64,000 bases of DNA from Candidatus Thalassarchaeum betae (GCA_003193925.1 PSPG01000004.1:110863-174862); one strand, 5' to 3'. Numbered from the stretch's first letter, positions 9,420 to 64,000 are shown. Translations and numbers: made by a program. Notes: generated by a model from the sequence alone, not told the origin.

Positions 9420-9497
9420 TGGTGGGCCCGCCAGGATTTGAACCTGGGTCTATTGGTCCCAAACCAACAAGCATAAGCCAGACTAACCCACGGGCCC
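9420..9497 (-). tRNA. tRNA-Pro(UGG), CCA encoded
   Basis: Reverse complement GGGCCCG...GTTGG-TTTGGGA-CCAAT...GTTCAAATC...CGGGCCCACCA forms a cloverleaf. Confidence 0.95.
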
Positions 9498-19529: not shown

Positions 19530-20039
19530 GTGAGGATGGCGATGGTCGTTGCGATGGACGAGGAGGGTTTCATCGGCAGGGGCAATCGGCTTCCCTGGCG
19601 CCTAACCAGCGACATGGCCCGGTTCAAGCGGCTCACAGAAGGTGACGGCTTCAACTCGGTCATCATGGGAAGGAAGACCTGGGACTCCCTGTCCGAGGGG
19701 TACAGGCCACTGCCCGAGCGCGTCAACATCGTCATGTCGCGCGACACACAATGGCAGGCTGAGGGAGCTGAGACAGCCCTCTACGTCGGCCGCGCGATTG
19801 AGCTCGCCTTCGCCGAGGGCAGCGATGAGTGCTGGATCATCGGTGGGGCGCAGGTCTACGAGATGTTCCTCGACAGGGTGGATGAGATCCACGTGACCAC
19901 CGTGCACACCAGCGGCAGTGGCGAGGTGCGTTTCCCGGATTGGGATCGCAGCGGGTGGTCTGCGGAGGTCGTCGAGCGGCAGGAAGCAGACGGTGACAAC
20001 GAACACTCAACGACGTACTCGGTCTGGACCAAGTCCTGA
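19530..20039 (+). CDS. folA: Dihydrofolate reductase
   Basis: LPWRLTSDMARFK, VIMGRKTWDS, RPLPERVNIVMSR, IIGGAQVY. Confidence 0.96.
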   Translation: MRMAMVVAMDEEGFIGRGNRLPWRLTSDMARFKRLTEGDGFNSVIMGRKTWDSLSEGYRPLPERVNIVMSRDTQWQAEGAETALYVGRAIELAFAEGSDECWIIGGAQVYEMFLDRVDEIHVTTVHTSGSGEVRFPDWDRSGWSAEVVERQEADGDNEHSTTYSVWTKS

Positions 20040-20101
20040 ATCAGTCCCTACCAATGCAACTGACAGGAGTTGGAAGGGGGGGGCCTTTGAAACAGAATAT
20101 C

Positions 20102-20548
20102 TCATTGATGCTGCTTTTGATACAAATCAATCCACTCTTGAACAGACATCTTGGAGCACAACTCCCCCACCAATTCATAGGGAATATTGGACGTGTTTTT
20201 GAATCGAATGCAACTCTTACCCATGTCAAGTTTAGTCTTGCAGTGATTAGGATATTCCTGCGTGAACCATTCTAATAGAGCAGGACTAGCATAGATGCCC
20301 ATGTGGTAAAGCCCAATGTGTCGCCGCTGAGATGCAATACTCAGGAATGGTAGCGGCAATTCTGGGTCAACGTGATAACCTTCTGGGAATAGAGAATGAG
20401 GGACAACCCAACTTGGCATATTGTAGTTGATCATCTCTTCAAAGCCATCTGGCAAGTTCGAACGAATTGTGTCTCTCAGTTTCTCCATGGCTTCCTTCCT
20501 ATCTGCAGGTAGGGTGCTGAAATACTCTTCAAAGGCAGTCACAATCAT
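20102..20548 (-). CDS. DUF1801 (YdhG-like) protein
   Basis: LPDGFEEMINYNMP, YHVDP.LPLPF, KLDMGKSCIRFK; AT-richer codon use. Confidence 0.8.
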   Translation of the reverse strand: MIVTAFEEYFSTLPADRKEAMEKLRDTIRSNLPDGFEEMINYNMPSWVVPHSLFPEGYHVDPELPLPFLSIASQRRHIGLYHMGIYASPALLEWFTQEYPNHCKTKLDMGKSCIRFKNTSNIPYELVGELCSKMSVQEWIDLYQKQHQ

Positions 20549-20721
20549 TTCTAGAAGTCATAGGATATAATCCGTGAACTATCGACATTGGTCAGTTCAC
20601 AAGGGTTCATCCGAAAACCCATGCGAATGGAATTGCTGTCCGAATGGGCTTTGCGTGGGCCAGTCTAGACACTAGCGTATGACGCGTCCCTCCCCGCCGC
20701 GTACTGAATTATCTCGTGTGA

Positions 20722-21168
20722 TTAGGAATATTGACGGTTAATTCTGATGAACTCGGCCAGCACAGTATCCCATCCCTCGTCGTACCTATCTCGGACCTCC
20801 GCTGCTCCATCTCCTAGTCTCTCCCAATTATCGTGAGATAGGCTGACTTCGGTACCACCTTCCCTCTGGGTGAAGTGGACGCTTATGACAGTCGGTCCGG
20901 ATGCCTCTGGATTGACCTTCCATTCCATCCCAAAGCGATTCGGCGGCTCCCATATAGACACAACTCCCCAATCCGCCTCGGTCCCATCGTAATGAATCTC
21001 GTAGATCCTCCCCCCCAAGTGCCCCTCTACCGTTGCAGCCTTCGTGATGCTGTTCCCGATGGAGTGTGTGGCAAGAGGCCACCATTCGGATAGTCTAGCG
21101 GTGAATATCTCGAAGGCTTGGCCGATTTGCGTATCCACGGAAATCGATTTGCGGACTGGTTCGATCAT
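20722..21168 (-). CDS. SRPBCC/AHSA1 (START-like) domain protein
   Basis: AFEIFT..LSEWWP, GGRIYE, WEPPNRF, GGTEVSLSH, GWDTVL. Confidence 0.8.
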   Translation of the reverse strand: MIEPVRKSISVDTQIGQAFEIFTARLSEWWPLATHSIGNSITKAATVEGHLGGRIYEIHYDGTEADWGVVSIWEPPNRFGMEWKVNPEASGPTVISVHFTQREGGTEVSLSHDNWERLGDGAAEVRDRYDEGWDTVLAEFIRINRQYS

Positions 21169-21343
21169 GAGCGCACATCGGACGGAGTATCATCAACATT
21201 GCTCCGCTATTCCAATTCCTAGTTGATCTAACCCCTGAGCTTCCGGACTCACAAGCAACTGACCTAGGACTGGAGGAGACCGGGGACGCCCTCGGTCTAA
21301 TATAGCCGATTAACCAGTGAGATACAAACAGAGGAAATGCATC

Positions 21344-21712
21344 ATGACGAGCCAGACCGTCGTCTATACGGTTTCCGCGACGATTTTCGCAATATTGTTC
21401 GGTGAACTGATATTACCAGCATCAATTGGTAATTCTCCGCCAATACTGAGCAATCCTGTGACGTTCGTGGCAATGTCGTTCTATTATGTGGCGATCTCAT
21501 TCATATTTTCAATAATACTCGGAAAATACGGTACGAAAATGGCACTCGCCGCGTTTTTCGTGTACGGGGGCATCGTCGAGTTGATTCTTTTCGGCAATGC
21601 AGGAGATGTAGTAGGATTCTTGTTTTTCGGAGGCCTGTACATTTTCCTGTTCGGAGTTCCGATCTGGATCACGGATAAATTGACGGTGAGAGGGCAACAT
21701 TCCGAAACTTGA
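21344..21712 (+). CDS. Hypothetical four-TM membrane protein
   Basis: 122-aa ORF with four hydrophobic stretches, AT-rich. Confidence 0.6.
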   Translation: MTSQTVVYTVSATIFAILFGELILPASIGNSPPILSNPVTFVAMSFYYVAISFIFSIILGKYGTKMALAAFFVYGGIVELILFGNAGDVVGFLFFGGLYIFLFGVPIWITDKLTVRGQHSET

Positions 21713-21716
21713 GTGC

Positions 21717-21992
21717 ATGGGTACCCTTGAGATTGCGGAATGGTTTCCTGAATGTAATACTTTTATCTGTTCGTTCACTCAGAGTATTACATGCGCTGGC
21801 CCCCCCACCATAGTGAATACGAAGAGGGAGACGGTTTCGGTGACGAGGAGGGTGCTTATTGTAGTGAACTAGGTTGCATGAATAAGGCTGCATACCACTA
21901 TAGAACAAATGGGGGCCAGCGTTTCCTCTGTAAGGAACATTACCGCGGATGAGTGGGCCCTCTATTACAACCTCATCAACAAGGGTACCCAT
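21717..21992. other. Nested inverted-repeat element (candidate structured RNA or MITE-like element)
   Basis: Perfect stems 21717-21729/21980-21992 (13 bp), 21752-21761/21783-21792 (10 bp), 21794-21804/21911-21921 (11 bp), plus compatible imperfect stems. Confidence 0.55.
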
Positions 21993-21996
21993 CGAT

Positions 21997-22386
21997 TCAC
22001 TGGTCGGTATACTCAGTGACTCGAATTCCGAGATTCCCCCTACGCGCCTTCCTCTGCATTATCCGGTCCATCTTGCGGTGGAACTCAGACTCGAGGTCTA
22101 CCTTCATCGCGAGTGAGTGGCCCATAAGCAGAATCAGCAGGTCGGCCAGCTCCTCGGCAGCCTCCTCGAGTGGTTTGCCCTTGGTAATAGCCGCTGCGAA
22201 CTCCCCCAGTTCCTCGACGGTGAGCGCAATGCGATAGCCCATGTCGTGACCGTTGTTCTCGGGGTCGGCGAAGGCGTGCTTGTGGTGGAACGCCGCCACT
22301 CGGGACATCATCGTCATCCAAGAGCCGTCAGGGCTATCCTGCGCCTCGATCTCAATCCAGTCGTCCACGGTAACGAGTCGTTCCAT
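21997..22386 (-). CDS. MazG-like nucleotide pyrophosphohydrolase
   Basis: EELGE...EELADL acidic motif. Confidence 0.85.
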   Translation of the reverse strand: MERLVTVDDWIEIEAQDSPDGSWMTMMSRVAAFHHKHAFADPENNGHDMGYRIALTVEELGEFAAAITKGKPLEEAAEELADLLILLMGHSLAMKVDLESEFHRKMDRIMQRKARRGNLGIRVTEYTDQ

Positions 22387-44473: not shown

Positions 44474-44547
44474 CGGGCCTGATGGGATTCGAACCCACGG
44501 CCACCGGGTTAAAAGCCCGGCGCTCTACCTGACTAAGCTACAGGCCC
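44474..44547 (-). tRNA. tRNA-Lys(UUU)
   Basis: Reverse complement GGGCCTG...CCGGG-CTTTTAA-CCCGG...GTTCGAATC...CAGGCCCG; full CCA not encoded. Confidence 0.95.
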
Positions 44548-44720: not shown

Positions 44721-46103
44721 ATGACGCGAGGAAGGGGTGAGCGTTTGGAAAGGGTCGGCTCCGATTCGGACGTCACCAGGTTCGGGGTCGAGGGTGTTGG
44801 CTCATGGGAGTTGGACGTTCCCAACACTGTCTACCCTCCTCGTGAGGACACCCATCTTCTCGCTGGAGCTCTGCTCGAGCTCTCACGACACGATGGCCTG
44901 GCCACGGAGATCGGCTGTGGGTCTGGTGCCATCTCCATCCTACTAGCCGCACTGGGGTGGAAGGTCGAGTCCTGTGACATCAACCCTTTTGCAGTAGCCG
45001 CGACCAGGGGTAATGCCAGCAAGGCTGGATTGGCCGATGTCGTGAACGTCAGAGAAGGCGGACTGGGGGAGGATGACTGGTCAATTCCAGAAGCCTCTGA
45101 CCTGATAGTCTGGAACCTGCCTTACTTGAGCCCGCCCGGGGAGGGTGAAGCAGTGCTCGAAGCCATCGAGGAGGCATCAATGAGCGACCTCACTGATGGC
45201 GGTTGGTCAGATCGGCTGCTGGAGGAACTGGAGTCTTCCGATGGGTTGAGAGATGACTGCCTGGTGTTGATGCTCCACAGAACCGATCCGCGCAGCCCGA
45301 GCGGCCCTGAAAGATGGAAGTCCAGGGGTTGGTCCTCGAGATGCCTCGCGAGTTTGAGGCTCGCGGACGAGAGGCTCGAAGTTATCTGCTACTGGAGGCC
45401 TGGTTCTGGGAATCCACCTACCGTGCTCGAAGAGTGCGAGTCGACCATGGACGAGGCCGAGGGGATCTCCTCGGAGCCAGGTTGGCAGAGGGTGTTTTCG
45501 TCCTCTCAGAAATCGGGCAGGGGGAGGAGGGGCAGGTCATGGCAATCCGAGAGTGGCGATATGGCGTGCACTTGGCTAATCCCATCCAGCATGGTCGAAG
45601 AATGCTCACCAGGGCTCATCCAGACTGCAATCGGGGCCGTTGTGTCCGATGCCATCCGATGCAATGTGAAGTGGCCCAATGACATCGTGACCGAGGATGG
45701 TACGAAACTCGGGGGCGTTCTGCTGGAAGGAGGCTCCGGGGGCCCCCGAGTCAAGGTCGGAATCGGCCTGAACAGGAAGGGCGGCTCAGTGGACGGCATG
45801 GCCATCGCCGGTTGGGAGGACACCGTCGGGGCTTCGCGGGCCTTGGAGGTCTTCGGGATGGTGGATACCGCTCTGGCCTCGCTCTTCGAGGAGCACGTCC
45901 TCATCCCTCGCGTCAGCCGCGAGGAGTTACTGCGAATCTCGTGGCGTGGGCTGTCGGAGTCGCTGTCCACTGGGACTCCGGTCACAAGGTCGGGCTCGTC
46001 AGTCCGGCCCATCGGCCTCACTGAGGACGGAAACCTGATGCTCCATTCCGAAATCGGGTTGGAGACGGTAGACGGAGTGGGGTCGCTGAGATGGGGGGCC
46101 TAG
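44721..46103 (+). CDS. Fusion of HemK2/PrmC-like methyltransferase and biotin-protein ligase
   Basis: N-half VYPPREDT, EIGCGSG, WNLPY; C-half ESTMD, QKSGRGRRGRSW, VKWPNDI, KLGGVLLE, GIGLN. Confidence 0.85.
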   Translation: MTRGRGERLERVGSDSDVTRFGVEGVGSWELDVPNTVYPPREDTHLLAGALLELSRHDGLATEIGCGSGAISILLAALGWKVESCDINPFAVAATRGNASKAGLADVVNVREGGLGEDDWSIPEASDLIVWNLPYLSPPGEGEAVLEAIEEASMSDLTDGGWSDRLLEELESSDGLRDDCLVLMLHRTDPRSPSGPERWKSRGWSSRCLASLRLADERLEVICYWRPGSGNPPTVLEECESTMDEAEGISSEPGWQRVFSSSQKSGRGRRGRSWQSESGDMACTWLIPSSMVEECSPGLIQTAIGAVVSDAIRCNVKWPNDIVTEDGTKLGGVLLEGGSGGPRVKVGIGLNRKGGSVDGMAIAGWEDTVGASRALEVFGMVDTALASLFEEHVLIPRVSREELLRISWRGLSESLSTGTPVTRSGSSVRPIGLTEDGNLMLHSEIGLETVDGVGSLRWGA

Positions 46104-47856: not shown

Positions 47857-48672
47857 GTGAGCAGGTCAAGTGCATACTCGAACAGACTGCTCGTGTTGGG
47901 CGTAATCGTCCTGCTAGCAGCAGGTGGCACGCAGGGTAGGCCCGGCGGCGTAGGAGGTGATGCCAATGGCGATGGAGAAGTTCCTCTGGCAGGGTGCACC
48001 TGCCACAGTGGACAGCCCGACAATTCGGTCACGCTACTCATCGATGGGCTTCCCTACCACTACGAGGCGGGGGTTGTATACACACTGAGGGTCCAACTCA
48101 TCGGAGGCCCCGATATCGATACGGCCTCTCATACCGGTGGGTTCTCGATGCGCGTCAGCGCCGGCACGCTGGGCGCCGGGGATGGCTTTGAGAACATGGT
48201 CCAGAATTGGGAGGACGACTCGGCGACTCTGACTCACACCGATGCTGGCTCGAAGACCGAAGACAGGTCGTGGCTCATCGTCTGGACCGCCCCATCCACG
48301 GACGAGGAGGTGGTGACCTTCTGGCTTGCTGGGAACTCCGTCAACGGTGACTTGGCGAACTCAGGCCTCGACAGGTGGAACAGGCTCGCCGCATCGGTTG
48401 ACGGGGGTGAGGACGACGGTCGGACCAGGACGGTGTTCTCGGGAGACGGGGGCATCGAGCCTCCAGCCCCCGTCAGCCATGGAGTAGACATCCACCTCAT
48501 GGGAGCAGGGCTCTGGGCCCATTGGCTGGGACTGCTTGGTTTCGCTGCAGTAATAATCGTCCTGCTGTTCTGCGGTCTCTTCCTGCGCTACGGCTTCTCT
48601 CGGCACTACGCCGGACGCAGCAACCTGCTGCGCCTCCGCATCAAGCATCTCCGCAGAGGTGATCAACTGTGA
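47857..48672 (+). CDS. Reeler-like (choice-of-anchor V-type) membrane protein with CxCH motif
   Basis: Signal peptide, AGCTCH, TLTHT, WTAP, FWLAGNSVNG, C-terminal TM. Confidence 0.65.
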   Translation: MSRSSAYSNRLLVLGVIVLLAAGGTQGRPGGVGGDANGDGEVPLAGCTCHSGQPDNSVTLLIDGLPYHYEAGVVYTLRVQLIGGPDIDTASHTGGFSMRVSAGTLGAGDGFENMVQNWEDDSATLTHTDAGSKTEDRSWLIVWTAPSTDEEVVTFWLAGNSVNGDLANSGLDRWNRLAASVDGGEDDGRTRTVFSGDGGIEPPAPVSHGVDIHLMGAGLWAHWLGLLGFAAVIIVLLFCGLFLRYGFSRHYAGRSNLLRLRIKHLRRGDQL

Positions 48673-49118
48673 AGGACGACATCGTGATGAGGCTGCTCAA
48701 GCAGGTAAAGTCTGGTGAGGTCAGCCTGGACGACGCTCGCACTGCCCTCGAGGACGTCAGCCTCTCAGAGGACGCATACAACGTGGCCTTGGACCACGGG
48801 GTCTTCAACTACCCCCAGTCGGGTACGATCGTCCGCGCTACTATTTCCCCCTCCGGCGAGTCGATGCTGGTGGTGCTACTCGCCTTGTGGGGGGTCCTGT
48901 GGACCCTCTTCTGGGCTGGCGCACTGTCTTATGGGCTGTTCAAGGGATGGGACCAGCAACTCCTGTCATTCAACATGGGGATGACCCTGCTGACTATCAT
49001 CATCATGGGAATAGTCTACCTCAAGTTCGTCTTGCCCGATGTCGTGATCGTCAAGCACAGGGGCAACAAATACATCACTCTGAACGACCCTGAGGGATGG
49101 AAGGATTACGAGGTGTGA
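48669..49118 (+). CDS. Hypothetical two-TM membrane protein in the Rieske/cyt b operon
   Basis: GTGA overlap with the upstream gene; two TMs. Confidence 0.65.
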   Translation: MKDDIVMRLLKQVKSGEVSLDDARTALEDVSLSEDAYNVALDHGVFNYPQSGTIVRATISPSGESMLVVLLALWGVLWTLFWAGALSYGLFKGWDQQLLSFNMGMTLLTIIIMGIVYLKFVLPDVVIVKHRGNKYITLNDPEGWKDYEV

Positions 49119-49120
49119 AC

Positions 49121-49975
49121 ATGGCGAGGAGATTCAGACTGCGTGCTGTTCCGGGTGCTGGCGAGGAAGTTGGCGAATCGCCCAAGTTAATCGATCGCAG
49201 GGAATTCATGCGGCACTCGTTCAACACCGCTGCTGGAGTAATCACCATGGCCAGCCTGGGAGCTGTGGGATTCGCCTCCCTGCTGATGGGCCAATCCGAA
49301 GCCGACGGGGGAGACTCAGCCCTCCGTTTTTACGTGCCAAGCGGTGCTGAGGACTCGGCATGGTACGGCGACCGGCACCTTGAGCCGATGTCATACCAGT
49401 CCTTCGTCGATGCCGCTGCCTCCTCTACGACAGGGATGTCGGGGGCATCGGGAGTATGGTCCGGGCTGCCCGTGAATGTCCTGTACGTGCCACATACTGA
49501 GAACGCACAGGCCGCCTTGGTCGAGAACAAGCCGCGCTTCCAATTCATGGACGGGTACAACGAGAGCGGGGCCTACGTCGGCTCGGGCTACGAGGTGGAC
49601 GAGGACCCGGCTTACGAGCTACTTTCGATTCACGATAACATGATCGTCACATTCGGCCGATGTCCCCACCTGTGCTGCATCCCGGGATGGCAGTTGGTGC
49701 TCAACGACTTCACCAGTGACCAGTGGAATCCCGGAGGGGTCGATGCCGGTGGCAACAAGCTGTTTTGCATCTGCCACTCGAGCCGGTACGACCCTACCGT
49801 GATTGAGAAGAATCGGAACCGGAACAGATTGAACGGGACTGAGTTCGACTACATAGGAATCAAGCGCACCGGAGGTCCCGCCCCAGTCGGGATGCCTCTG
49901 ATTCCCTTCGTTGTGAATGGGGATATCATCGAGGCTCTGGATGACTTCAAGGACTGGTACACGTATTGCGATTAG
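49121..49975 (+). CDS. Rieske [2Fe-2S] protein
   Basis: Tat-type anchor DRREFM; boxes CPHLCC and CICHSSRY; GGPAP. Confidence 0.9.
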   Translation: MARRFRLRAVPGAGEEVGESPKLIDRREFMRHSFNTAAGVITMASLGAVGFASLLMGQSEADGGDSALRFYVPSGAEDSAWYGDRHLEPMSYQSFVDAAASSTTGMSGASGVWSGLPVNVLYVPHTENAQAALVENKPRFQFMDGYNESGAYVGSGYEVDEDPAYELLSIHDNMIVTFGRCPHLCCIPGWQLVLNDFTSDQWNPGGVDAGGNKLFCICHSSRYDPTVIEKNRNRNRLNGTEFDYIGIKRTGGPAPVGMPLIPFVVNGDIIEALDDFKDWYTYCD

Positions 49976-49984
49976 GGTGGGAAA

Positions 49985-50851
49985 ATGATTCAGTTCTGGT
50001 TCTTGTGGCTCTTCATCGCGATAGTGGTCGTCCTGGTCGCATTCACGCTTCGCAAGGAGAGGGACGACATGCCTAGGACCGACATCCTGCGCGCTGTCGA
50101 GAGCAGTGCTGGCAGCATGGGCCTCGCAGAGAAGGCCTTTCTCTGGGCCTTCTCATGGCTCGACACGCGGTTCAGGATCCAGGACTACTGGGGCATGAGC
50201 AGGGACGCCTACCACCACATGCACCGACAGATGCCACTGACTCACGCGGAGAAGTACAAGCTCCGGATCATCTGGTACTGGTACCCGCTGTACTGTCTCG
50301 GCGGGATCTCCTTCCTCGCATTCGTCATCCTGATCATCTCGGGCACGATTCTTGGCCTCTACTACGTTCCGGGAGGCGAAGGCACCCCGTCCCCTGCCTA
50401 CCTCAGCATGGAGTTCATCATGGTTGAGTTACCGTTCGGCTACATCATCAGGTCGATTCACCATTGGGGGACCCACTTCATGGTGGCATCGGTGTTCCTG
50501 CACATGTGTAGGGTGTACTTCACGGGGGCCTACCGCAACCCCCGGGAGTTGAACTGGCTAATCGGCGTCTCTTTGATGTTCTTCACAATCTTCTTCGGAT
50601 ATTCGGGCTACCTGCTGCCCTGGGACAGCCTCGCCTTCGGTGCGGCTACCATCGGCATCAACATGGCCAACTCCACCCCGTTGATCGGAAGCTGGGTTGC
50701 CAATGCCTTGTTCGCCGGCACGACCCTTTCGGCACAAACCGTCATTCGAATGTACTTCCTTCACGTGTTCATCCTACCCGTGATCGTGACCGCGCTTATT
50801 CTCGCTCATCTGTTCATAGTCTGGGTTCAGGGGATAGCGGAGCCGCATTGA
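49985..50851 (+). CDS. petB: Cytochrome b6-type subunit
   Basis: YCLGG, RSIHHWG, FLHMCRVY, RELNW, SGYLLPW, FLHVF..AHL, QGIAEPH. Confidence 0.92.
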   Translation: MIQFWFLWLFIAIVVVLVAFTLRKERDDMPRTDILRAVESSAGSMGLAEKAFLWAFSWLDTRFRIQDYWGMSRDAYHHMHRQMPLTHAEKYKLRIIWYWYPLYCLGGISFLAFVILIISGTILGLYYVPGGEGTPSPAYLSMEFIMVELPFGYIIRSIHHWGTHFMVASVFLHMCRVYFTGAYRNPRELNWLIGVSLMFFTIFFGYSGYLLPWDSLAFGAATIGINMANSTPLIGSWVANALFAGTTLSAQTVIRMYFLHVFILPVIVTALILAHLFIVWVQGIAEPH

Positions 50852-50863
50852 GGGGGTTATCGG

Positions 50864-53647
50864 ATGAGCATGATCGACAGGTTCGGGAGGATCGCTGACA
50901 CCTACATCAGCGAGAGAGACCAACTGCTCGAAGCCGAAGAAGAGAGGCGCAGGGTGTTCGTCGGACACCCCTTCTGGCCTACCGAGGTGCTGCGTGACAG
51001 CATCATACTGGCTTCTATGATGGCTGTCATCGCGTTCTACTCATGGATAATCCCCCCTCCACTCCACAGCGCGGCCGATCCGTTCGCCCAAGCCGGCTTC
51101 GTGTTCCCCGACTGGTACGTGCTGTTCTCCTACGGATACCTGAGGTGGGGCGAGTATCTGCCTCAGTACGTGATTCCAGCCGGGCCCATAGGGGCGTTCT
51201 TCGGCACACCCGTGATAGCATGGAACGCCGGTTGGTGGGGCGCCTTCCTGACCGGCGTCCCAGTGGGCTTGCTCGCTCTGCCACCGTTCCTCGGAGGGAG
51301 GGAGAAGCGTGGTGTCGAAGACCCTTGGTTCGCAACCGCCGGTGCCGTCTATATCGCTCACGTCTGGTTCATCTCGGTGTTCTCGATCAACATCTTCCTC
51401 GACCTGTACTCGAAGGACCTAAGCAACCACTGCTGGGCCAATTCCCATAGCGCCCTGTTATGCGGGAGGCAAGCCCCATGGACGGCCGATGTGTTCAACG
51501 CAGTACCTTGGGTGCTGACCGGCATCTTCGTCTTCGCCATCGTCTACTTCGGAGTGAGATGGTTCACACTCAATTCGATAGGCGCTAGGCTCAATCCGAA
51601 GATGGGCAGGCAGATTGCGATAGGCTCCCTGGTCGCAACGGTCCTGATCTCCGTCGTGACATGGCCGATCTACGATGACGGCTTCTGGGACTACGGCGGC
51701 CTCGGCGCGATGGATGAAGTGGAGGAACTGGACACCATGAGGGGGCAGCCATCGGATACCCTCGTGCACCCCGGCAAGGGCAATGCATGGGCAGAATGGG
51801 AGGACGATTGCCTGCCCTACTCCGAGACCCTGGGCCTCGCAGTGTGGGATGACTTGAGCGAGGACGACGATGCCGACGACTGGTGTGTCATAGCTGCTGC
51901 GCATTGGGTCAATTGGAAGATCTACCAGCCTACGCGAACCACCCTGATCGACTTCGCGGGTGACAACGGGCATGCTGACTCCGAAATCGGCAGGAATGCG
52001 GGGGGCATGGACATCACGTATGTTGGCAACACGGATGGATCTTCGGTGGTAATCACCGAGAGCAGGACATTCGAGGTCGAGGACCTTGGCGTCGCCAGCG
52101 TGCCTGCGGATGTCGGCTGCAACTTCAGGACGAGTGTGCGCGGTGCGGGGACTCAATCGCAGAGCGTCTCCCTGACCGACGAGTCCGGCAGGGTCCTGTG
52201 GCAGAACGAGGGTGGCTCATGCCAGTCCACCACGCTATACCTCCCCTCGGGCTCGAGTTACACCGTGAGCTTCTCATCGACTTCCGAAGGCGTGAACGAG
52301 TCCGTGTCGATGATTGCCGGCTTCTCCGCCGTTGCATACCAGCCCCTGCTTATCGATGATGACGGTACTGCGGTGGTTCGCTCAGAATCATCCCTGAGTC
52401 TGGAAGAGCTCGCCACCCTCTCGCTCGAGAATCCCACTTACCACAAGAACCCAAAGGCGTTGGATGCCAAGCTCATCTACAGCCTGTTCATCCCGTGCTT
52501 GGGGGTAGGCGCGATCGTCTTCCTAGTCATGCGGAGCATGGCTCGCGGGTACGAGTGGGAGATGAACAAGTGCTACGGCTGCGACCTGTGCGACGACGCC
52601 TGTCCGGTTCGCCTGTTCAACGCGGGAGACAAGTTGAACATCATCTACAACACCTGGAACAACGAGGATGACGGGGTCCCGCTGTACTCCTGTCTGACCT
52701 GCACCGCCTGCACCAACGCCTGCCCGCAGTTGGTCGACTACGACGTGTACGTGGACATCCGCCGCAGCCTGATCGTCGGCGGACCGCCCGCCGCGGAGAT
52801 ACCCCACACTCTGCTCCAGGCTGTGCTCGCGGCTGAGGCGGAGGAAGACGCTGATGAGGCGTTCGTCTCAGTAGAGGACTACCCCCTTGACTCCAATGTC
52901 GGGTACTACCCGGGCTGTGTCGACTACATCGACCAGGAGATGATCTTCAGCCACGTCAACGAGGGCACGATGGACCTCGGCGAGACCACGACCGCGGCCT
53001 TCACCCTGTTCGAGGAGATGGGGCAGGAGGTAACCTACCTCGGTCGCGACTTCCTGAAGTGCTGTGGCCATGACCAGAAGTGGCAGGGACTGTCCGAAGT
53101 ATTCGAGAAGCTCAAGGCATACAACACGAAGAAACTCAAAGACAGCGGCATCGACACGCTCCTGACCTCTTGCGCCGAGTGCTTCCGTACTTTCGCGATG
53201 GACTACGAGCTGGACGGCATGAAGGTCATGCACACCACCGAGTACCTGATCGAGAAGGGTTTCGACATGGACCTAGCTGTCGATGACGAAGTCACCGTGA
53301 CTTACCACGACCCCTGCAGGCTCGGCCGACAGATGAACCTCTACGACAAGCCCCGCGACCTAGTGCGGGCTGTCGACGGAGTCAACCTGGTCGAGATGGA
53401 GCACTATGGCGAGGACGCAATGTGCTGCGGGGTCTCCAGCATGATGGCCTGCAACGAGAACAGCAGGGCTCTGCGCCTGCAGCGCTTCGACGAGGTCAAT
53501 GCGACGGGCGCGGACATCATGTTGACGACCTGCCCGAAGTGCGTGGCGCACTTCGAGTGCCTGAAGTTCGAGGGCGACCCCCGGCACGATTTCGAGATCC
53601 TAGACGTGGTGAGCTTCCTCGCCCGCCAGGTGAACTCCAGGAAGTAG
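50864..53647 (+). CDS. Cytochrome b subunit IV fused to HdrC-like 2x[4Fe-4S] and HdrB/D-like CCG domains
   Basis: PFWP, ADPF, PDWY; CYGCDLCDDACP, CLTCTACTNACP; YYPGC, CCGH, TSCAEC, YHDPC, CCG, TCPKC. Confidence 0.88.
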   Translation: MSMIDRFGRIADTYISERDQLLEAEEERRRVFVGHPFWPTEVLRDSIILASMMAVIAFYSWIIPPPLHSAADPFAQAGFVFPDWYVLFSYGYLRWGEYLPQYVIPAGPIGAFFGTPVIAWNAGWWGAFLTGVPVGLLALPPFLGGREKRGVEDPWFATAGAVYIAHVWFISVFSINIFLDLYSKDLSNHCWANSHSALLCGRQAPWTADVFNAVPWVLTGIFVFAIVYFGVRWFTLNSIGARLNPKMGRQIAIGSLVATVLISVVTWPIYDDGFWDYGGLGAMDEVEELDTMRGQPSDTLVHPGKGNAWAEWEDDCLPYSETLGLAVWDDLSEDDDADDWCVIAAAHWVNWKIYQPTRTTLIDFAGDNGHADSEIGRNAGGMDITYVGNTDGSSVVITESRTFEVEDLGVASVPADVGCNFRTSVRGAGTQSQSVSLTDESGRVLWQNEGGSCQSTTLYLPSGSSYTVSFSSTSEGVNESVSMIAGFSAVAYQPLLIDDDGTAVVRSESSLSLEELATLSLENPTYHKNPKALDAKLIYSLFIPCLGVGAIVFLVMRSMARGYEWEMNKCYGCDLCDDACPVRLFNAGDKLNIIYNTWNNEDDGVPLYSCLTCTACTNACPQLVDYDVYVDIRRSLIVGGPPAAEIPHTLLQAVLAAEAEEDADEAFVSVEDYPLDSNVGYYPGCVDYIDQEMIFSHVNEGTMDLGETTTAAFTLFEEMGQEVTYLGRDFLKCCGHDQKWQGLSEVFEKLKAYNTKKLKDSGIDTLLTSCAECFRTFAMDYELDGMKVMHTTEYLIEKGFDMDLAVDDEVTVTYHDPCRLGRQMNLYDKPRDLVRAVDGVNLVEMEHYGEDAMCCGVSSMMACNENSRALRLQRFDEVNATGADIMLTTCPKCVAHFECLKFEGDPRHDFEILDVVSFLARQVNSRK

Positions 53648-53722
53648 CTACCCGAACGCGTAGTCGCGGAGTCTCCTGCATCAAAGTGGCGGCAGGAAGC
53701 ATACATTGAGAATAGGTACGCC

Positions 53723-54067
53723 TTGGTAGGGGTTGTGACGGAGATACCCGACCTGCTTGCGCGGCGTGCGGCTGAGCAGAGCCGTATCAGGATGATGCTC
53801 AATTCGATGCGCGCTGAAGAGGAAGCGATGATCAAGGGGGGAGAAGAGGCTGTGGCATGGGTCAAGAAGGAGTTGTGCATAGGCTGTGACCAATGCACCA
53901 TTGTGTGCGATGACGACGCCATCGAGCTCTATGACACACCGATGGCGAGTCCCATCATGGATGTGGATGTCAACAGGAAAGCGAAGATACTCCGTGACGA
54001 GTGCACCGGTTGCAAGCTATGCGTCCTAGGGTGCCCCACCGATGCGATAATCATGATTGACAGGTAG
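53723..54067 (+). CDS. 2x[4Fe-4S] ferredoxin
   Basis: CIGCDQCTIVC and CTGCKLCVLGCP..AI. Confidence 0.88.
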   Translation: MVGVVTEIPDLLARRAAEQSRIRMMLNSMRAEEEAMIKGGEEAVAWVKKELCIGCDQCTIVCDDDAIELYDTPMASPIMDVDVNRKAKILRDECTGCKLCVLGCPTDAIIMIDR

Positions 54068-54075
54068 GCGGGACC

Positions 54076-54390
54076 ATGGGCGAGGAGGACCCCATCAGAT
54101 TCGGTGCCGAGTTCGGCCCGAAGAGGACCGCGAGATCCAGCGGAGTGTCGCTTTCGACATTCAAGACCCTGGTATGGGTGTCGAACATAGGGGGCCTCGT
54201 GCTCTTCGTCATCGGACTCGAGCTGATGGTCGTCCAGCAGTCGTTCTACCTCGGCCTCGCCTGCATCGTCGCAGGCGTGATCATCGCCCTGTTCCCTTCG
54301 AACTACGAGATAGTCGGCATGGAAGAGATCGAGGAGGCTACGGAAAGCCCGCCTCAGGAACTCCCCCTGGACCATGAAGAGAAGCGGTGA
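54076..54390 (+). CDS. Small two-TM membrane protein
   Basis: Two hydrophobic segments, acidic tail, operonic spacing. Confidence 0.6.
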   Translation: MGEEDPIRFGAEFGPKRTARSSGVSLSTFKTLVWVSNIGGLVLFVIGLELMVVQQSFYLGLACIVAGVIIALFPSNYEIVGMEEIEEATESPPQELPLDHEEKR

Positions 54391-63372: not shown

Positions 63373-63443
63373 GGTTCCACCTGGATATCTTGGACTATGG
63401 CTCTGCCTGTAATCTCGTTTTTGGTGCGGGGGGTGAAGGAGAG

Positions 63444-63562
63444 TGGCACAGCGACGAACGTTCCCGTGGGCTCTCGCGCCACAGTACAGGAGTCGACGCA
63501 GGAGGGCTTGACTTCCGGGTTCGGTATGGGACCGGGTAGAACCCCTCCGCTGTGGCCGTGCA
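63444..63562 (-). rRNA. rrf: 5S rRNA
   Basis: Reverse complement GCACGGCCACAGCGG...CCCATACCGAACCCGGAAGTCAAGCC...CTGTGC. Confidence 0.95.
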
Positions 63563-63640
63563 CAACTCATCCTTCGAATGTGAATTGATATGCGCTATTG
63601 GACAGAGGCCCACAAGGGCCTTGGTGTTGTAGATCTAATT

Positions 63641-64000
<360 letters not shown>

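What the first reader, a model, noticed from the sequence alone, without database searches (positions are those of the whole stretch)
50864..54067. Rieske/cytochrome b complex covalently wired to a heterodisulfide-reductase-like module
Seen: one 927-aa ORF joins subunit IV (PDWY), extra TMs, a ~270-aa acidic soluble domain, a TM, two CxxCxxCxxxCP clusters and two complete CCG domains. A 2x[4Fe-4S] ferredoxin gene follows. Known: 2x[4Fe-4S]+CCG is the HdrD/GlpC/GlcF architecture, used for thiol-disulfide chemistry or dehydrogenase-quinone coupling. Inference: a modified Q-cycle in which the low-potential branch exchanges electrons with a cytoplasmic disulfide, ferredoxin or dehydrogenase (bifurcation or cyclic flow) in a probably aerobic heterotroph.
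Basis: partly seen in the sequence, partly recalled or inferred. Interest (0 to 1): 0.85.

Follow-up and report, generated by a model that had tools for sequence, protein, structure and literature searches.

The report
Archaeal complex III with iron-sulfur wire
Marine Group II archaea build their only quinol-oxidising respiratory complex with one membrane subunit fused to a cytoplasmic iron-sulfur module of the heterodisulfide-reductase type, which probably lets ferredoxin-like carriers exchange electrons directly with the complex.

Summary
The 927-aa ORF at 50864-53647 is real. It is a core gene of the whole order (Poseidoniales / Marine Group II): 200 of 201 genomes, 24 of 24 genera, in one open frame.

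Its parts, in order:
- cytochrome b6f subunit IV, with an invariant PDWY motif
- two extra membrane helices
- an outward-facing acidic beta-sandwich found only in this order
- a sixth helix that returns the chain to the cytoplasm
- an HdrD-type module with 2 x [4Fe-4S] and 2 x CCG; 17 of its 18 motif cysteines are invariant in 36 sequences

It sits in a conserved operon with a Rieske protein and a cytochrome b6. The cytochrome b6 has four haem histidines and the haem-ci cysteine, and is the only cytochrome b found in the genome. A small ferredoxin and a 2-helix membrane protein usually follow.

Other Thermoplasmatota lineages have shorter fusions or a split form. Some add HdrA2-like and MvhD-like genes.

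The closest solved relative is mycobacterial EtfD, an Fe-S/haem wire to quinone.

My best reading (about 0.45) is a cytoplasmic electron port that feeds ferredoxin electrons into the n-side haems and Qi site. The direction of flow and the partner are unproven.

Papers had noted hdrD-like and rnfB-like neighbours and an orphan RnfB. I found no description of the fusion. I class it as a new variant of a known kind.

The parts
47857..48672 (+). 271-aa protein with a choice-of-anchor V / Reelin-like domain and a C-terminal membrane helix. First gene of the conserved cluster and a candidate outer-face redox partner.
   Evidence: NCBIfam choice_anch_V scores 85.1 bits against a cut-off of 42. The nearest Atlas cluster is 'putative Reelin domain', score 0.98. 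C47-x-C49-H50, M215 and H222 are kept in 21/21 orthologues. The gene is syntenic in 20/20 loci with enough flank.
48669..49118 (+). 149-aa two-helix membrane protein, DUF7318-like.
   Evidence: Pfam DUF7318 E 2e-5, 25.1 bits, below the cut-off of 27. A homologue lies upstream in 7 of 8 relatives' loci and in 20/20 order loci.
49097..49975 (+). Rieske [2Fe-2S] protein with a twin-arginine leader (RREFMRH) and one membrane helix.
   Evidence: TIGR01416 E 4.2e-10, below its cut-off. No Pfam hit, even at E 0.1. C189-P-H191-L-C193-C194 and C224-I-C226-H227 are kept in 26/26. The leader is read from the translation.
49985..50851 (+). Cytochrome b6-type subunit, 288 aa, with an extra N-terminal helix.
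   Evidence: Pfam Cytochrome_B E 7.8e-41. PDB cytochrome b6 6rqf_I E 7.7e-40, with 'YCLGG' aligned on residues 34-38 of b6. H160, H173, H260 and H275 are kept in 31/31 and C104 in 30/31. It is the only Cytochrome_B match in the genome.
50864..51418 (+). Fusion protein residues 1-185: subunit IV (helices E, F, G) with the PDWY Qo-site motif at residues 82-85.
   Evidence: for homology. P82, D83, W84 and Y85 are invariant in 36/36. Helices at 40-62, 122-138 and 154-183.
51476..51685 (+). Residues 205-274: two extra membrane helices, found only in this order.
   Evidence: AlphaFold helices 205-242 and 245-274. Hydropathy peaks at 213-231 and 247-265. Absent from the short fusions of other lineages.
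51686..52456 (+). Residues 275-531: acidic beta-sandwich domain, predicted to face outward, with an invariant cysteine pair.
   Evidence: 46 D+E against 13 K+R over residues 266-536. Domain model pLDDT 87.4, pTM 0.79. Best fold matches are GOLD and pre-peptidase C-terminal type sandwiches, Z 7.7-8.6, at the border of noise. The two Cys at domain positions 148 and 182 are invariant in 24/24. The stretch is 245-289 aa in 25 order members and 0-6 aa in 11 short forms.
52457..52540 (+). Residues 532-559: sixth membrane helix, which returns the chain to the cytoplasmic side.
   Evidence: AlphaFold helix 532-559. Hydropathy peak 537-555, score 2.46. It aligns with the single helix that precedes the Fe-S module in the short forms.
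52559..52729 (+). Residues 566-622: 2 x [4Fe-4S] ferredoxin domain. Its first cysteine lies about 10 residues after the membrane helix.
   Evidence: Pfam Fer4_8, Fer4_9 and Fer4_10 on 566-622. All 8 cysteines are invariant in 36/36.
52916..53194 (+). Residues 685-777: first CCG domain (C685, C733, C734, C770, C773).
   Evidence: Pfam CCG stretch at genome C19:163844-164056, which is window 52982-53194. Four Cys are 36/36 and C734 is 31/36; all 25 order members keep it.
53297..53554 (+). Residues 812-897: second CCG domain (C818, C854, C855, C890, C893).
   Evidence: Best Pfam CCG stretch 812-897. All five Cys are 36/36.
53723..54067 (+). 114-aa 2 x [4Fe-4S] ferredoxin, like RnfB and like the ferredoxin domain of HdrA2.
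   Evidence: Fer4_21 E 1.1e-12. rnfB TIGR01944 scores 44.5 bits against a cut-off of 68.7; HdrA2 positions 568-625 score 30.2 bits. The 8 Cys are kept in 22/22. Found within the fetched flank in 21 of 25 order loci.
54076..54390 (+). 104-aa two-helix membrane protein, always paired with the ferredoxin gene.
   Evidence: Helices 35-53 and 62-80. No Pfam family at E<=0.01. Found next to the ferredoxin gene in 21 of 21 loci that hold the ferredoxin; the two ORFs overlap by a few bases in several loci.

Best explanation
What it is. This is the complex III of Marine Group II archaea, a b6f-type Rieske/cytochrome b complex. Its subunit IV has been extended into a six-helix protein that carries a cytoplasmic HdrD-type iron-sulfur module.

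Inferred topology. The subunit-IV N-terminus lies in the cytoplasm. Helices E, F and G and two extra helices lead to an outward-facing beta-sandwich. A sixth helix returns the chain, and the first [4Fe-4S] motif begins about 10 residues after it. That would put the two cubane clusters and the two CCG clusters just under the n-side face of the membrane.

Inferred mechanism. By homology with EtfD and HdrDE, the four clusters form a wire that ends at an n-side haem. Here that would be haem bH or the haem ci suggested by the conserved cysteine. The small ferredoxin and its two-helix membrane partner are the likely entry subunits.

Most likely function. Reduced ferredoxin, made by 2-oxoacid:ferredoxin oxidoreductases, delivers electrons through this wire to the Qi-site quinone. 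The complex would then act both as quinol oxidase (Qo, Rieske, outer acceptor) and as ferredoxin:quinone reductase.

Shown: the architecture, its conservation, the operon, and that it is the only cytochrome b gene found.
Inferred: the sidedness, that a wire to the haems exists, the partner, and the direction of flow.
For: Architecture and homology.

Conservation.
- 200/201 genomes of the order and 24/24 genera have a match. Every listed match but two spans residues 1-2 to 925-927 in one frame without stops.
- All 8 ferredoxin-motif Cys and 9 of 10 CCG Cys are invariant in 36 sequences.
- The cytochrome b6 keeps its four His in 31/31 and the Cys aligned with b6 Cys35 in 30/31.

Role in the cell. 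It is the only Cytochrome_B gene found in a 91.8%-complete genome that also has two COX1 genes. So it must also serve as the ordinary quinol oxidase.

Operon. Reelin-like, DUF7318, Rieske, b6 and fusion genes are syntenic in 20/20 loci. The ferredoxin plus 2-TM pair lies within the flank in 21/25.

The same link in other lineages. Short fusions, or a split form, sit directly after a b6 gene in 8/8 loci from four other families of the phylum. They are followed by polyferredoxin, MvhD-like and HdrA2-like genes.

Closest solved relative. EtfD (9ojn): sequence E 5.5e-21, Foldseek E 1.3e-12. Its paper describes two CCG clusters, two cubane clusters, haem b (7 A from the last cluster) and menaquinone as a continuous wire (section read).

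Ferredoxin supply. POR_N genes are present. The NuoF NADH module was not found, while NuoH is present.

Outward-facing mid domain. It has an invariant Cys pair.

Independent suggestions in print.
- Diamond et al. [quoted passage not shown]
- Tully 2019 (PMC6336850, passages read): MGII has an orphan RnfB and an 'MGII specific' complex III.
Against: - No structure or distance was obtained. The whole-protein model has pTM 0.43 and low confidence in the subunit-IV and ferredoxin-motif parts.
- Nothing tested here fixes the direction of electron flow.
- The ferredoxin gene is not always co-oriented with the operon. It is convergent in 4 loci of the second family and was not found in the flank in 4 of 25.
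- Both CCG motifs are complete in all 25 order members, as in catalytic HdrB/HdrD. EtfD has lost one cysteine. This leaves disulfide chemistry open.
- A complex-I-like enzyme (NuoH) could already oxidise ferredoxin.
- The role of the Cys104 equivalent in binding haem ci is recalled knowledge, not tested here.
- Transcription is supported only by short contigs in RNA libraries, which may contain DNA.
Confidence: 0.45

Rival explanations
1. Output port. Electrons of the low-potential branch of the Q cycle (Qo, bL, bH/ci) leave through the Fe-S wire. They reduce a cytoplasmic disulfide at the CCG clusters, or a ferredoxin. The Qo-site bifurcation would then drive a reductive cytoplasmic reaction instead of, or besides, Qi-site quinone reduction.
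For: - Both CCG motifs are complete in all 25 order members, including the two cysteines equivalent to the bridging cysteines that the EtfD paper describes as catalytic in HdrB.
- The best NCBIfam similarities are to disulfide or fumarate reductases of the Hdr type: TfrB 102 bits, DsrK 32 bits. All are far below their cut-offs.
- Relatives carry HdrA2-like and MvhD-like genes, which are parts of bifurcating heterodisulfide reductases.
- Anammox Rieske/cytochrome b complexes with extra redox subunits have been proposed to work this way (recalled, not checked here).
Against: - No candidate disulfide substrate or carrier gene lies in the operon.
- The organism is an aerobe with ferredoxin-producing oxidoreductases, so it needs to oxidise rather than make reduced ferredoxin (Tully 2019 passages).
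- According to the EtfD paper, solvent-exposed catalytic noncubane clusters are expected to be oxygen-sensitive.
- Complete CCG motifs also occur in non-disulfide enzymes such as SdhE and GlpC (recalled).
- This is the only cytochrome b complex found, so diverting the low-potential branch would cost Q-cycle proton yield.
Confidence: 0.2
2. Dehydrogenase or ETF docking module. Like EtfD, GlpC, GlcF or LutA, the HdrD-type module accepts electrons from a flavoprotein and passes them to quinone through the haems. The flavoprotein could be the electron-transfer flavoprotein of beta-oxidation or a substrate dehydrogenase. The small ferredoxin would be only an accessory.
For: - EtfD is the closest solved structure. 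Its paper shows that it couples beta-oxidation to menaquinone.
- The genome has etfB-etfA next to an acyl-CoA dehydrogenase gene, with no FixCX-type gene beside them.
- LutA is the second Foldseek match (9a6l_A, E 1.2e-9).
- In 5 of the 11 short-form relatives, the second Cys of the first CCG motif is replaced by S, V or T, as in EtfD.
Against: - The genome has a second protein with the actual EtfD/HdrED architecture: a weak NarI-like N-terminus plus Fer4 plus 2 CCG, 711 aa, on contig C18. It is the more obvious ETF acceptor.
- No dehydrogenase or ETF gene is linked to the operon in 25 order loci.
- The conserved neighbours are ferredoxin-type proteins in every lineage examined.
Confidence: 0.15
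3. No through-wire. The Fe-S module is a redox sensor, a regulator or an assembly/stability domain of the complex and carries no catalytic electron flux.
For: - No distance or activity data exist.
- The order-specific outer domain shows that this subunit tolerates additions of unknown role.
Against: - All four cluster-binding sites are strictly conserved over sequences only 34-39% identical to the query.
- The module is repeatedly associated with further electron-transfer proteins: polyferredoxin, MvhD-like and HdrA2-like.
- The homologous module in EtfD is a wire.
Confidence: 0.05

Closest known systems
Cytochrome b6f complex (PetB cytochrome b6, PetD subunit IV, PetC Rieske) and the related Firmicute-type bc complexes
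   Same: - Cytochrome b is split into a four-helix b6 with four haem histidines and a separate subunit IV.
- A cysteine aligns with b6 Cys35, the haem ci attachment site (its role is recalled).
- The Qo-site PEWY motif is present as PDWY.
- The Rieske protein has a twin-arginine leader.
   Different: - No cytochrome f or c1 gene. A Reelin-like anchored protein is encoded in its place; in one relative lineage a cupredoxin is fused to b6.
- Subunit IV has three more membrane helices, an outer beta-sandwich and a 370-aa cytoplasmic Fe-S module.
- Cytochrome b6 has an extra N-terminal helix.
Mycobacterial EtfD (PDB 9ojn; Courbon et al. 2026, PMC13083937), with HdrDE and DsrMK, which share its architecture
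   Same: - A membrane haem-b domain is followed, a few residues after the last helix, by 2 cubane [4Fe-4S] clusters and two CCG domains on the cytoplasmic side.
- It is the best sequence match (E 5.5e-21) and fold match (E 1.3e-12) among solved structures.
- The paper describes the clusters, haem and quinone as a wire.
   Different: - There the membrane part is a NarI-type five-helix haem-b domain in the same chain. Here it is subunit IV of a Rieske/cytochrome b complex, and the haems sit on the neighbouring b6 subunit.
- EtfD has Thr for the second Cys of CCG1 and His583 completing cluster D2. Here both Cys are kept and the His position is an invariant Glu.
Complex III locus of Ca. Angelarchaeales with hdrD-like and rnfB-like genes (Diamond et al. 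2022, PMC9038741)
   Same: It is the same phylum, with an hdrD-like and an rnfB-like gene next to the cytochrome b complex III genes. The authors proposed a ferredoxin entry point (passage read). It is probably the same system as the short fusions I found in other families of the phylum.
   Different: - In the passages I read it is described as neighbouring genes, not as a fusion with subunit IV.
- No mention of MGII, of the outer domain or of HdrA2-like partners.
- The locus figures are in supplements that I could not open.
HdrA2B2C2 / HdrABC-MvhD heterodisulfide reductases, and QmoABC of sulfate reducers (the latter recalled)
   Same: - The Fe-S module equals HdrC plus HdrB.
- In the sister order the module is split exactly at that junction.
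- In two other families the following genes match HdrA2 positions 1-230, 140-366, 536-763 and 641-774.
   Different: - In the window's own order only a 114-aa ferredoxin remains of the HdrA2-like set.
- FlpD/MvhD was not found in the window's own genome, which is 91.8% complete.
- The membrane partner is a Rieske/cytochrome b complex, not HdrE or QmoC.
- No methanogenic cofactors are expected in this aerobe.
Ferredoxin:plastoquinone reductase route of cyclic electron flow through chloroplast b6f (hypothesis; recalled)
   Same: Electrons from ferredoxin are proposed to enter the n-side haem ci / Qi site of a b6f-type complex.
   Different: In chloroplasts no Fe-S wire is part of the complex and the route is debated. 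Here a four-cluster module is covalently attached.

Membership tests
Cytochrome b6f subunit IV / C-terminal half of cytochrome b | Sequence homology to PetD or to helices E-G of cytochrome b | tested here: met
   Single sequence against PDB: 7r0w_J subunit IV, E 9e-4. Profile of 13 N-terminal parts: cytochrome b residues 233-379, E 6.2e-12; subunit IV 2e74_B, E 8.6e-10.
Cytochrome b6f subunit IV / C-terminal half of cytochrome b | PEWY-type Qo-site motif in the ef loop | tested here: met
   PDWY at residues 82-85 aligns on PEWY and is invariant in 36/36. It is a D-for-E variant.
Cytochrome b6f subunit IV / C-terminal half of cytochrome b | Match to the Pfam model for the cytochrome b C-terminal / PetD domain | tested here: not met
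   No Pfam family on residues 1-560 at E<=0.01.
Cytochrome b6f subunit IV / C-terminal half of cytochrome b | A small three-helix protein ending on the p-side | tested here: not met
   Six predicted membrane helices plus two soluble domains, 927 aa.
Rieske/cytochrome b complex (as a whole) | Adjacent genes for a Rieske protein with CxH...CxCH and a cytochrome b with four haem histidines | tested here: met
   Gene order. Rieske motif residues kept in 26/26. Cytochrome b6 His160, His173, His260 and His275 kept in 31/31. PDB b6 match E 7.7e-40.
Rieske/cytochrome b complex (as a whole) | b6f/Firmicute subtype: cysteine for covalent haem ci near the start of helix A | tested here: met
   Cys104 aligns with residue 35 of spinach b6 (6rqf_I) and is kept in 30/31. 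That this residue binds haem ci is recalled. Whether haem ci is present was not testable here.
HdrD (heterodisulfide reductase subunit D) | Two CxxCxxCxxxCP motifs followed by two CCG domains | tested here: met
HdrD (heterodisulfide reductase subunit D) | Score above a curated family cut-off for an Hdr-type equivalog | tested here: not met
   Best NCBIfam matches: TfrB 102.1 against 385, LdhH 74.8 against 800, GlpC 41.5 against 278, DsrK 32.3 against 400.
HdrD (heterodisulfide reductase subunit D) | Partner is HdrE, a NarI-type cytochrome b | tested here: not met
   The partner here is a b6-type cytochrome b and the module is fused to subunit IV.
HdrD (heterodisulfide reductase subunit D) | Reduces CoM-S-S-CoB | not testable with these tools
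   This needs an activity assay. Tully 2019 describes the organism group as aerobic heterotrophs.
EtfD (ETF:menaquinone oxidoreductase) | Fold and sequence similarity of the Fe-S module | tested here: met
   9ojn_A E 5.5e-21. Foldseek rank 1, E 1.3e-12.
EtfD (ETF:menaquinone oxidoreductase) | NarI-like five-helix haem-b domain in the same chain | tested here: not met
   The N-terminus is subunit IV. The NarI-like form is the C18 paralogue (Nitrate_red_gam E 0.004).
EtfD (ETF:menaquinone oxidoreductase) | Thr in place of the second Cys of CCG1 (linear 3Fe-4S), and a His completing cluster D2 | tested here: not met
   The query's 'CC' aligns with EtfD's 'CT', and C-A-E-C aligns with C-P-H-C. C734 is kept in 25/25 order members and E772 in 36/36. 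The EtfD residues are taken from the paper.
RnfB (for the 114-aa ferredoxin) | Score above the TIGR01944 cut-off | tested here: not met
   44.5 bits against 68.7. The shared part is only the 2x[4Fe-4S] domain.
RnfB (for the 114-aa ferredoxin) | Other Rnf subunits present | not tested
   Tully 2019 reports that RnfACDEG are lacking in MGII (passage read). I did not search for them.

The most novel reading that the evidence does not exclude
Thermoplasmatota archaea carry a class of Rieske/cytochrome b complexes with an Hdr-type module hard-wired to the n-side. This includes the very abundant Marine Group II.

In the full form seen in two unnamed families, the quinone-based bifurcation at Qo and a flavin-based HdrA2-like bifurcating unit are joined in one membrane complex.

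In Marine Group II the module has been streamlined to a four-cluster wire plus a small ferredoxin. That makes complex III itself a ferredoxin:quinone oxidoreductase. It would be a natural, covalent version of the long-debated ferredoxin route into haem ci of b6f.
Probability: 0.25. Interest if true: 0.88.

Novelty: new variant of a known kind. Interest (0 to 1): 0.68.

Why it matters
Marine Group II archaea are among the most abundant archaea of the surface ocean and none is cultured. Their respiratory chain has been described only as having an 'MGII specific' complex III and an unexplained orphan RnfB (Tully 2019).

This finding gives both a concrete architecture. It is the only cytochrome b complex found in the cell, and it carries a conserved cytoplasmic Fe-S port next to that ferredoxin.

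If electrons enter there, ferredoxin from amino-acid and 2-oxoacid breakdown feeds respiration without a separate ferredoxin:quinone enzyme. That changes the proton budget assumed for these organisms.

For bioenergetics it offers a natural test case for n-side electron injection into a b6f-type complex. In the relatives with HdrA2-like genes, it offers a possible physical link between quinone-based and flavin-based bifurcation.

Tried and rejected
- **Complex prediction.** Chains were b6 residues 85-288, fusion residues 1-280, fusion residues 528-927 and two haems. Scores were 0.01 and 0.03 against a mark of 0.32. The tool gives no verdict and no contacts, so this says nothing for or against docking.
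- **Genome-contig scan with the subunit-IV profile.** 522 relatives were found, but the 80 kept are all MGII-labelled records. It gave the organism name (Ca. Thalassarchaeum / Thalassarchaeaceae) and no names for the other lineages.
- **Cluster look-up.** Only generic names, apart from one 'Halobacteria archaeon' label on a split-form protein. I did not follow this up.
- **RNA libraries.**
  - X1 holds 8 listed short contigs (151-272 nt, 0-7 mismatches) spread over the operon.
  - X12 holds one contig across the b6/fusion junction.
  - These are contigs that may come from DNA, so they are only a weak hint of transcription and no proof of a single transcript.
- **Fold of the middle domain.** The best Z is 8.6 (GOLD domain). 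Pre-peptidase C-terminal and collagen-binding domains score Z 7-8. The tool states this is the usual best score for models without a true match, so I call it only a beta-sandwich. Pfam gave nothing on it (M60-like_N, E 0.082).
- **Literature.**
  - Methanoperedens paper: another kind of unusual Rieske/cytochrome b complex, with HdrDE separate.
  - Lutacidiplasmatales paper: no hdrD mention.
  - Haloferax 'open issues' paper: petABD is b6f-like, with no Fe-S fusion mentioned.
  - The 'petD + hdrD' search gave two papers. The one I opened matched only on the word 'pETDuet'; I did not open the other.
  - 'Rieske + cytochrome b6 + CCG domain' gave 0 papers.
  - 'Thalassarchaea + Rieske' gave only Tully 2019.
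- **Assembly artefact.** Rejected.
- **Neighbours of the C18 paralogue and of etfBA.** No informative redox genes lie next to them.

Full report
**1. The observation**

The window holds a tight same-strand gene row:
- 47857-48672, 271 aa
- 48669-49118, 149 aa
- 49097-49975, 292 aa
- 49985-50851, 288 aa
- 50864-53647, 927 aa
- 53723-54067, 114 aa
- 54076-54390, 104 aa

Gaps or overlaps between them are at most 22 bases, apart from 75 bases before the ferredoxin gene. Base composition is flat here, GC 0.59-0.61. The window ends in archaeal 23S and 5S rRNA genes.

In the 927-aa protein, Pfam finds a 4Fe-4S dicluster domain at 566-622 and two CCG domains (E 7.5e-24). It finds nothing in the first 560 residues. 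The sequence shows two CxxCxxCxxxCP motifs and two C...CCG...CxxC motifs.

Residues 30-94 align with b6f subunit IV, with PDWY over PEWY (7r0w_J, E 9e-4). A profile of 13 N-terminal parts raises this to E 6e-12 against the C-terminal half of cytochrome b and 8.6e-10 against subunit IV.

The stretch 266-536 has 46 acidic and 13 basic residues.

**2. It is real and conserved**

- A protein search found 595 relatives. The best 120 are 76-99% identical and nearly all 926-936 aa. Their labels include Ca. Poseidoniales, Ca. Thalassarchaeum and marine group II/III euryarchaeote, and annotations such as 'heterodisulfide reductase subunit D' or 'Fe-S oxidoreductase'.
- In whole genomes of the same order, 200 of 201 have a match: 61 of 61 among those at least 90% complete, 24 of 24 genera, three families. 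All listed rows but two span residues 1-2 to 925-927 at 61-100% identity, in one frame without stops. The two exceptions are cut matches, G183:C162 and G039:C129.
- The genome holding the window is 1.48 Mb and 91.8% complete.

**3. Surroundings**

- The upstream 288-aa protein is a b6-type cytochrome b (Pfam E 7.8e-41; 6rqf_I E 7.7e-40). Its four haem histidines are kept in 31 of 31 orthologues. The cysteine aligned with residue 35 of b6 is kept in 30 of 31. That residue carries haem ci in b6f; this is recalled knowledge.
- The 292-aa protein is a divergent Rieske protein. Pfam does not find it and TIGR01416 scores E 4e-10. CPHLCC and CICH are kept in 26 of 26, and an RREFMRH twin-arginine leader is visible.
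- The first gene encodes a choice-of-anchor V / Reelin-like protein with a C-terminal helix and an invariant CxCH.
- The second encodes a DUF7318-like two-helix protein.
- The order Reelin-like, DUF7318, Rieske, b6, fusion is kept in 20 of 20 order loci with enough upstream flank.
- The ferredoxin and the 104-aa two-helix protein always travel as a pair. They lie within the flank in 21 of 25 loci: downstream on the same strand in the window's family, convergent in four loci of the second large family, and not found in four.
- The genome has no other Cytochrome_B match. It has two COX1 genes.

**4. Topology**

The AlphaFold model of the whole protein has pLDDT 72.8 and pTM 0.43. It has long helices at 40-62, 122-138, 154-183 (E, F, G), 205-242, 245-274 and 532-559.

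In b6f the N-terminus of subunit IV is on the n-side (recalled). Six helices then return the C-terminal module to that side, and the 275-531 domain faces outward.

This fits three observations:
- The outer domain has an invariant cysteine pair (24 of 24).
- Folded alone it is a confident beta-sandwich (pLDDT 87.4) with only generic fold matches (Z up to 8.6).
- The short relatives have four helices rather than six.

The first cluster cysteine (C570) comes about 10 residues after the last helix. The cubane domain must therefore sit close to the n-side surface. This is an inference from sequence. No distance was obtained, and the complex prediction gave no verdict.

**5. Relatives outside the order**

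I sampled 301 genomes of the phylum at E <= 1e-30.

- Full-length matches occur only in the window's order.
- Family f4 of the same class (8 of 8) has a split form: subunit IV plus the ferredoxin motifs in one ORF of 351-429 aa, and the CCG part in the next.
- Families f23 (5 of 5), f25 (4 of 4) and f31 (1 of 1) have short fusions of 574-789 aa without the middle domain. They always sit directly after a b6 gene.
- There the b6 gene is fused N-terminally to a cupredoxin (f23) or to Ig-like domains (f25). Rieske genes are present.
- The genes that follow are revealing.
  - In f23, three ORFs match NCBIfam HdrA2 positions 1-230 (E 1.2e-50), 140-366 (1.1e-51) and 641-774, the MvhD-like end (6.6e-28; Pfam FlpD 2e-29).
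  - In f25, one ORF matches positions 536-763 (7e-47).
- The MGII ferredoxin matches HdrA2 positions 568-625 (30 bits) and rnfB (44.5 bits, below its cut-off).
- FlpD was not found in the window's genome.

At 50% clustering, only about eight clusters of the whole protein universe are fusions of this kind.

Over 36 aligned fusions, 34-90% identical to the query:
- all 8 ferredoxin-motif cysteines are invariant
- 9 of 10 CCG cysteines are invariant
- the tenth (C734) is kept in 31 of 36, including all 25 order members

**6. What it works like**

The closest solved protein is Mycobacterium smegmatis EtfD (9ojn; sequence E 5.5e-21; Foldseek E 1.3e-12). LutA and HdrB follow.

I read sections 8 and 9 of the EtfD paper (PMC13083937). 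It describes two CCG clusters, two cubane clusters, a haem b 7 A from the last cluster and a menaquinone site. Together these form one wire from ETF to quinone. In EtfD a Thr replaces the second Cys of the first CCG, which gives a linear 3Fe-4S cluster, and His583 makes the second CCG cluster non-catalytic.

In the MGII protein both cysteines are kept, and the His position is an invariant Glu. By sequence the CCG sites therefore look more like HdrB/HdrD than like EtfD.

The genome also has a separate protein with the true EtfD/HdrED layout on contig C18. It has etfBA next to an acyl-CoA dehydrogenase gene. It has 2-oxoacid:ferredoxin oxidoreductase genes. NuoH is present but NuoF was not found.

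**7. Best explanation and rivals**

I read the module as a cytoplasmic electron port on the n-side of the organism's only complex III. The small ferredoxin and its membrane partner would be the entry subunits, and reduced ferredoxin the most likely donor to the bH/ci-Qi end (confidence 0.45).

The rivals are:
- an ETF or dehydrogenase docking module, as in EtfD, GlpC or LutA (0.15)
- a non-catalytic role (0.05)

The direction of flow is the main open point. Complete CCG motifs and the HdrA2-like partners in relatives keep the Hdr-like chemistry alive. The aerobic, ferredoxin-producing physiology and the absence of any disulfide-carrier gene in the operon favour input.

**8. What was known**

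- Tully 2019 (PMC6336850, passages read) states that MGII have a cytochrome b and a Rieske protein but no canonical bc1, an orphan RnfB, and an 'MGII specific' complex III.
- Diamond et al. 2022 (PMC9038741, passages read) note an hdrD-like and an rnfB-like gene next to complex III in Ca. Angelarchaeales and suggest a ferredoxin entry point.
- My searches found no paper that describes the following:
  - the fusion with subunit IV
  - its universality in MGII
  - the outer domain
  - the split and short forms
  - the HdrA2-like partners
- The library is limited to open-access papers and preprints, and supplements were closed.

**9. Verdict**

This is a new variant of known kinds: a Rieske/cytochrome b complex joined to an HdrD/EtfD-type Fe-S wire. 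Interest 0.68.

Noticed in passing
L009:1965-5251 (-) and L014:821-3386 (-); L012:5903-7462 (+), L015:6206-7996 (+): In two other families of the phylum, the subunit IV-HdrD fusion gene is followed by ORFs that together cover HdrA2: the FAD part, the ferredoxin part and the MvhD-like end. A whole HdrA + HdrBC + MvhD-like set is thus encoded with a Rieske/cytochrome b6 complex. This hints at a link between flavin-based and quinone-based bifurcation.
   Followed up: partly
window 47857-48672 (+): The first gene of the operon encodes a choice-of-anchor V / Reelin-like protein with a C-terminal membrane helix. C47-x-C49-H50, M215 and H222 are invariant in 21/21. It may be the outer-face electron acceptor that stands in for cytochrome f or c1. 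In one relative lineage a cupredoxin is fused to cytochrome b6 instead.
   Followed up: partly
own genome G000:C18:21752-22693 (-), locus L002/L045: A second HdrD-type protein, 711 aa: a weak NarI-like N-terminus (Nitrate_red_gam E 0.004) plus Fer4 plus 2 CCG. This is the EtfD/HdrED architecture and a likely ETF:quinone oxidoreductase. Its neighbours are unrelated housekeeping genes.
   Followed up: partly
window 54076-54390 (+): A 104-aa two-helix protein with an acidic tail and no family assignment. It is always paired with the small ferredoxin gene, often with overlapping stop and start codons. It may anchor the ferredoxin to the membrane complex.
   Followed up: partly
fusion protein residue 772 (window 53178-53180): A Glu is invariant (36/36) inside the CxxC of the first CCG domain, at the position where EtfD has the cluster-completing His583.
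   Followed up: no
protein P0282 (cluster of P0202): A 336-aa subunit IV + 4Fe-4S dicluster protein (the split form) carries the label 'Halobacteria archaeon'. DUF7318 rings in Haloferax volcanii among the 14 control genomes. The system may therefore reach haloarchaea-like lineages.
   Followed up: no
window 20001-22000: GC falls to 0.485 against about 0.60 elsewhere. The stretch holds only short ORFs of 107-148 aa.
   Followed up: no
window 63443-64000 (-), 44474-44547 (-), 9423-9497 (-): A 5S rRNA gene and the 3' end of an archaeal 23S rRNA gene lie at the window's end, plus two tRNA genes.
   Followed up: no
window 44721-46103 (+): A 460-aa protein that joins a methyltransferase domain with a biotin/lipoate ligase (BPL_LplA_LipB) domain. 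It lies two genes upstream of the operon, beyond an FtsZ-like gene.
   Followed up: no
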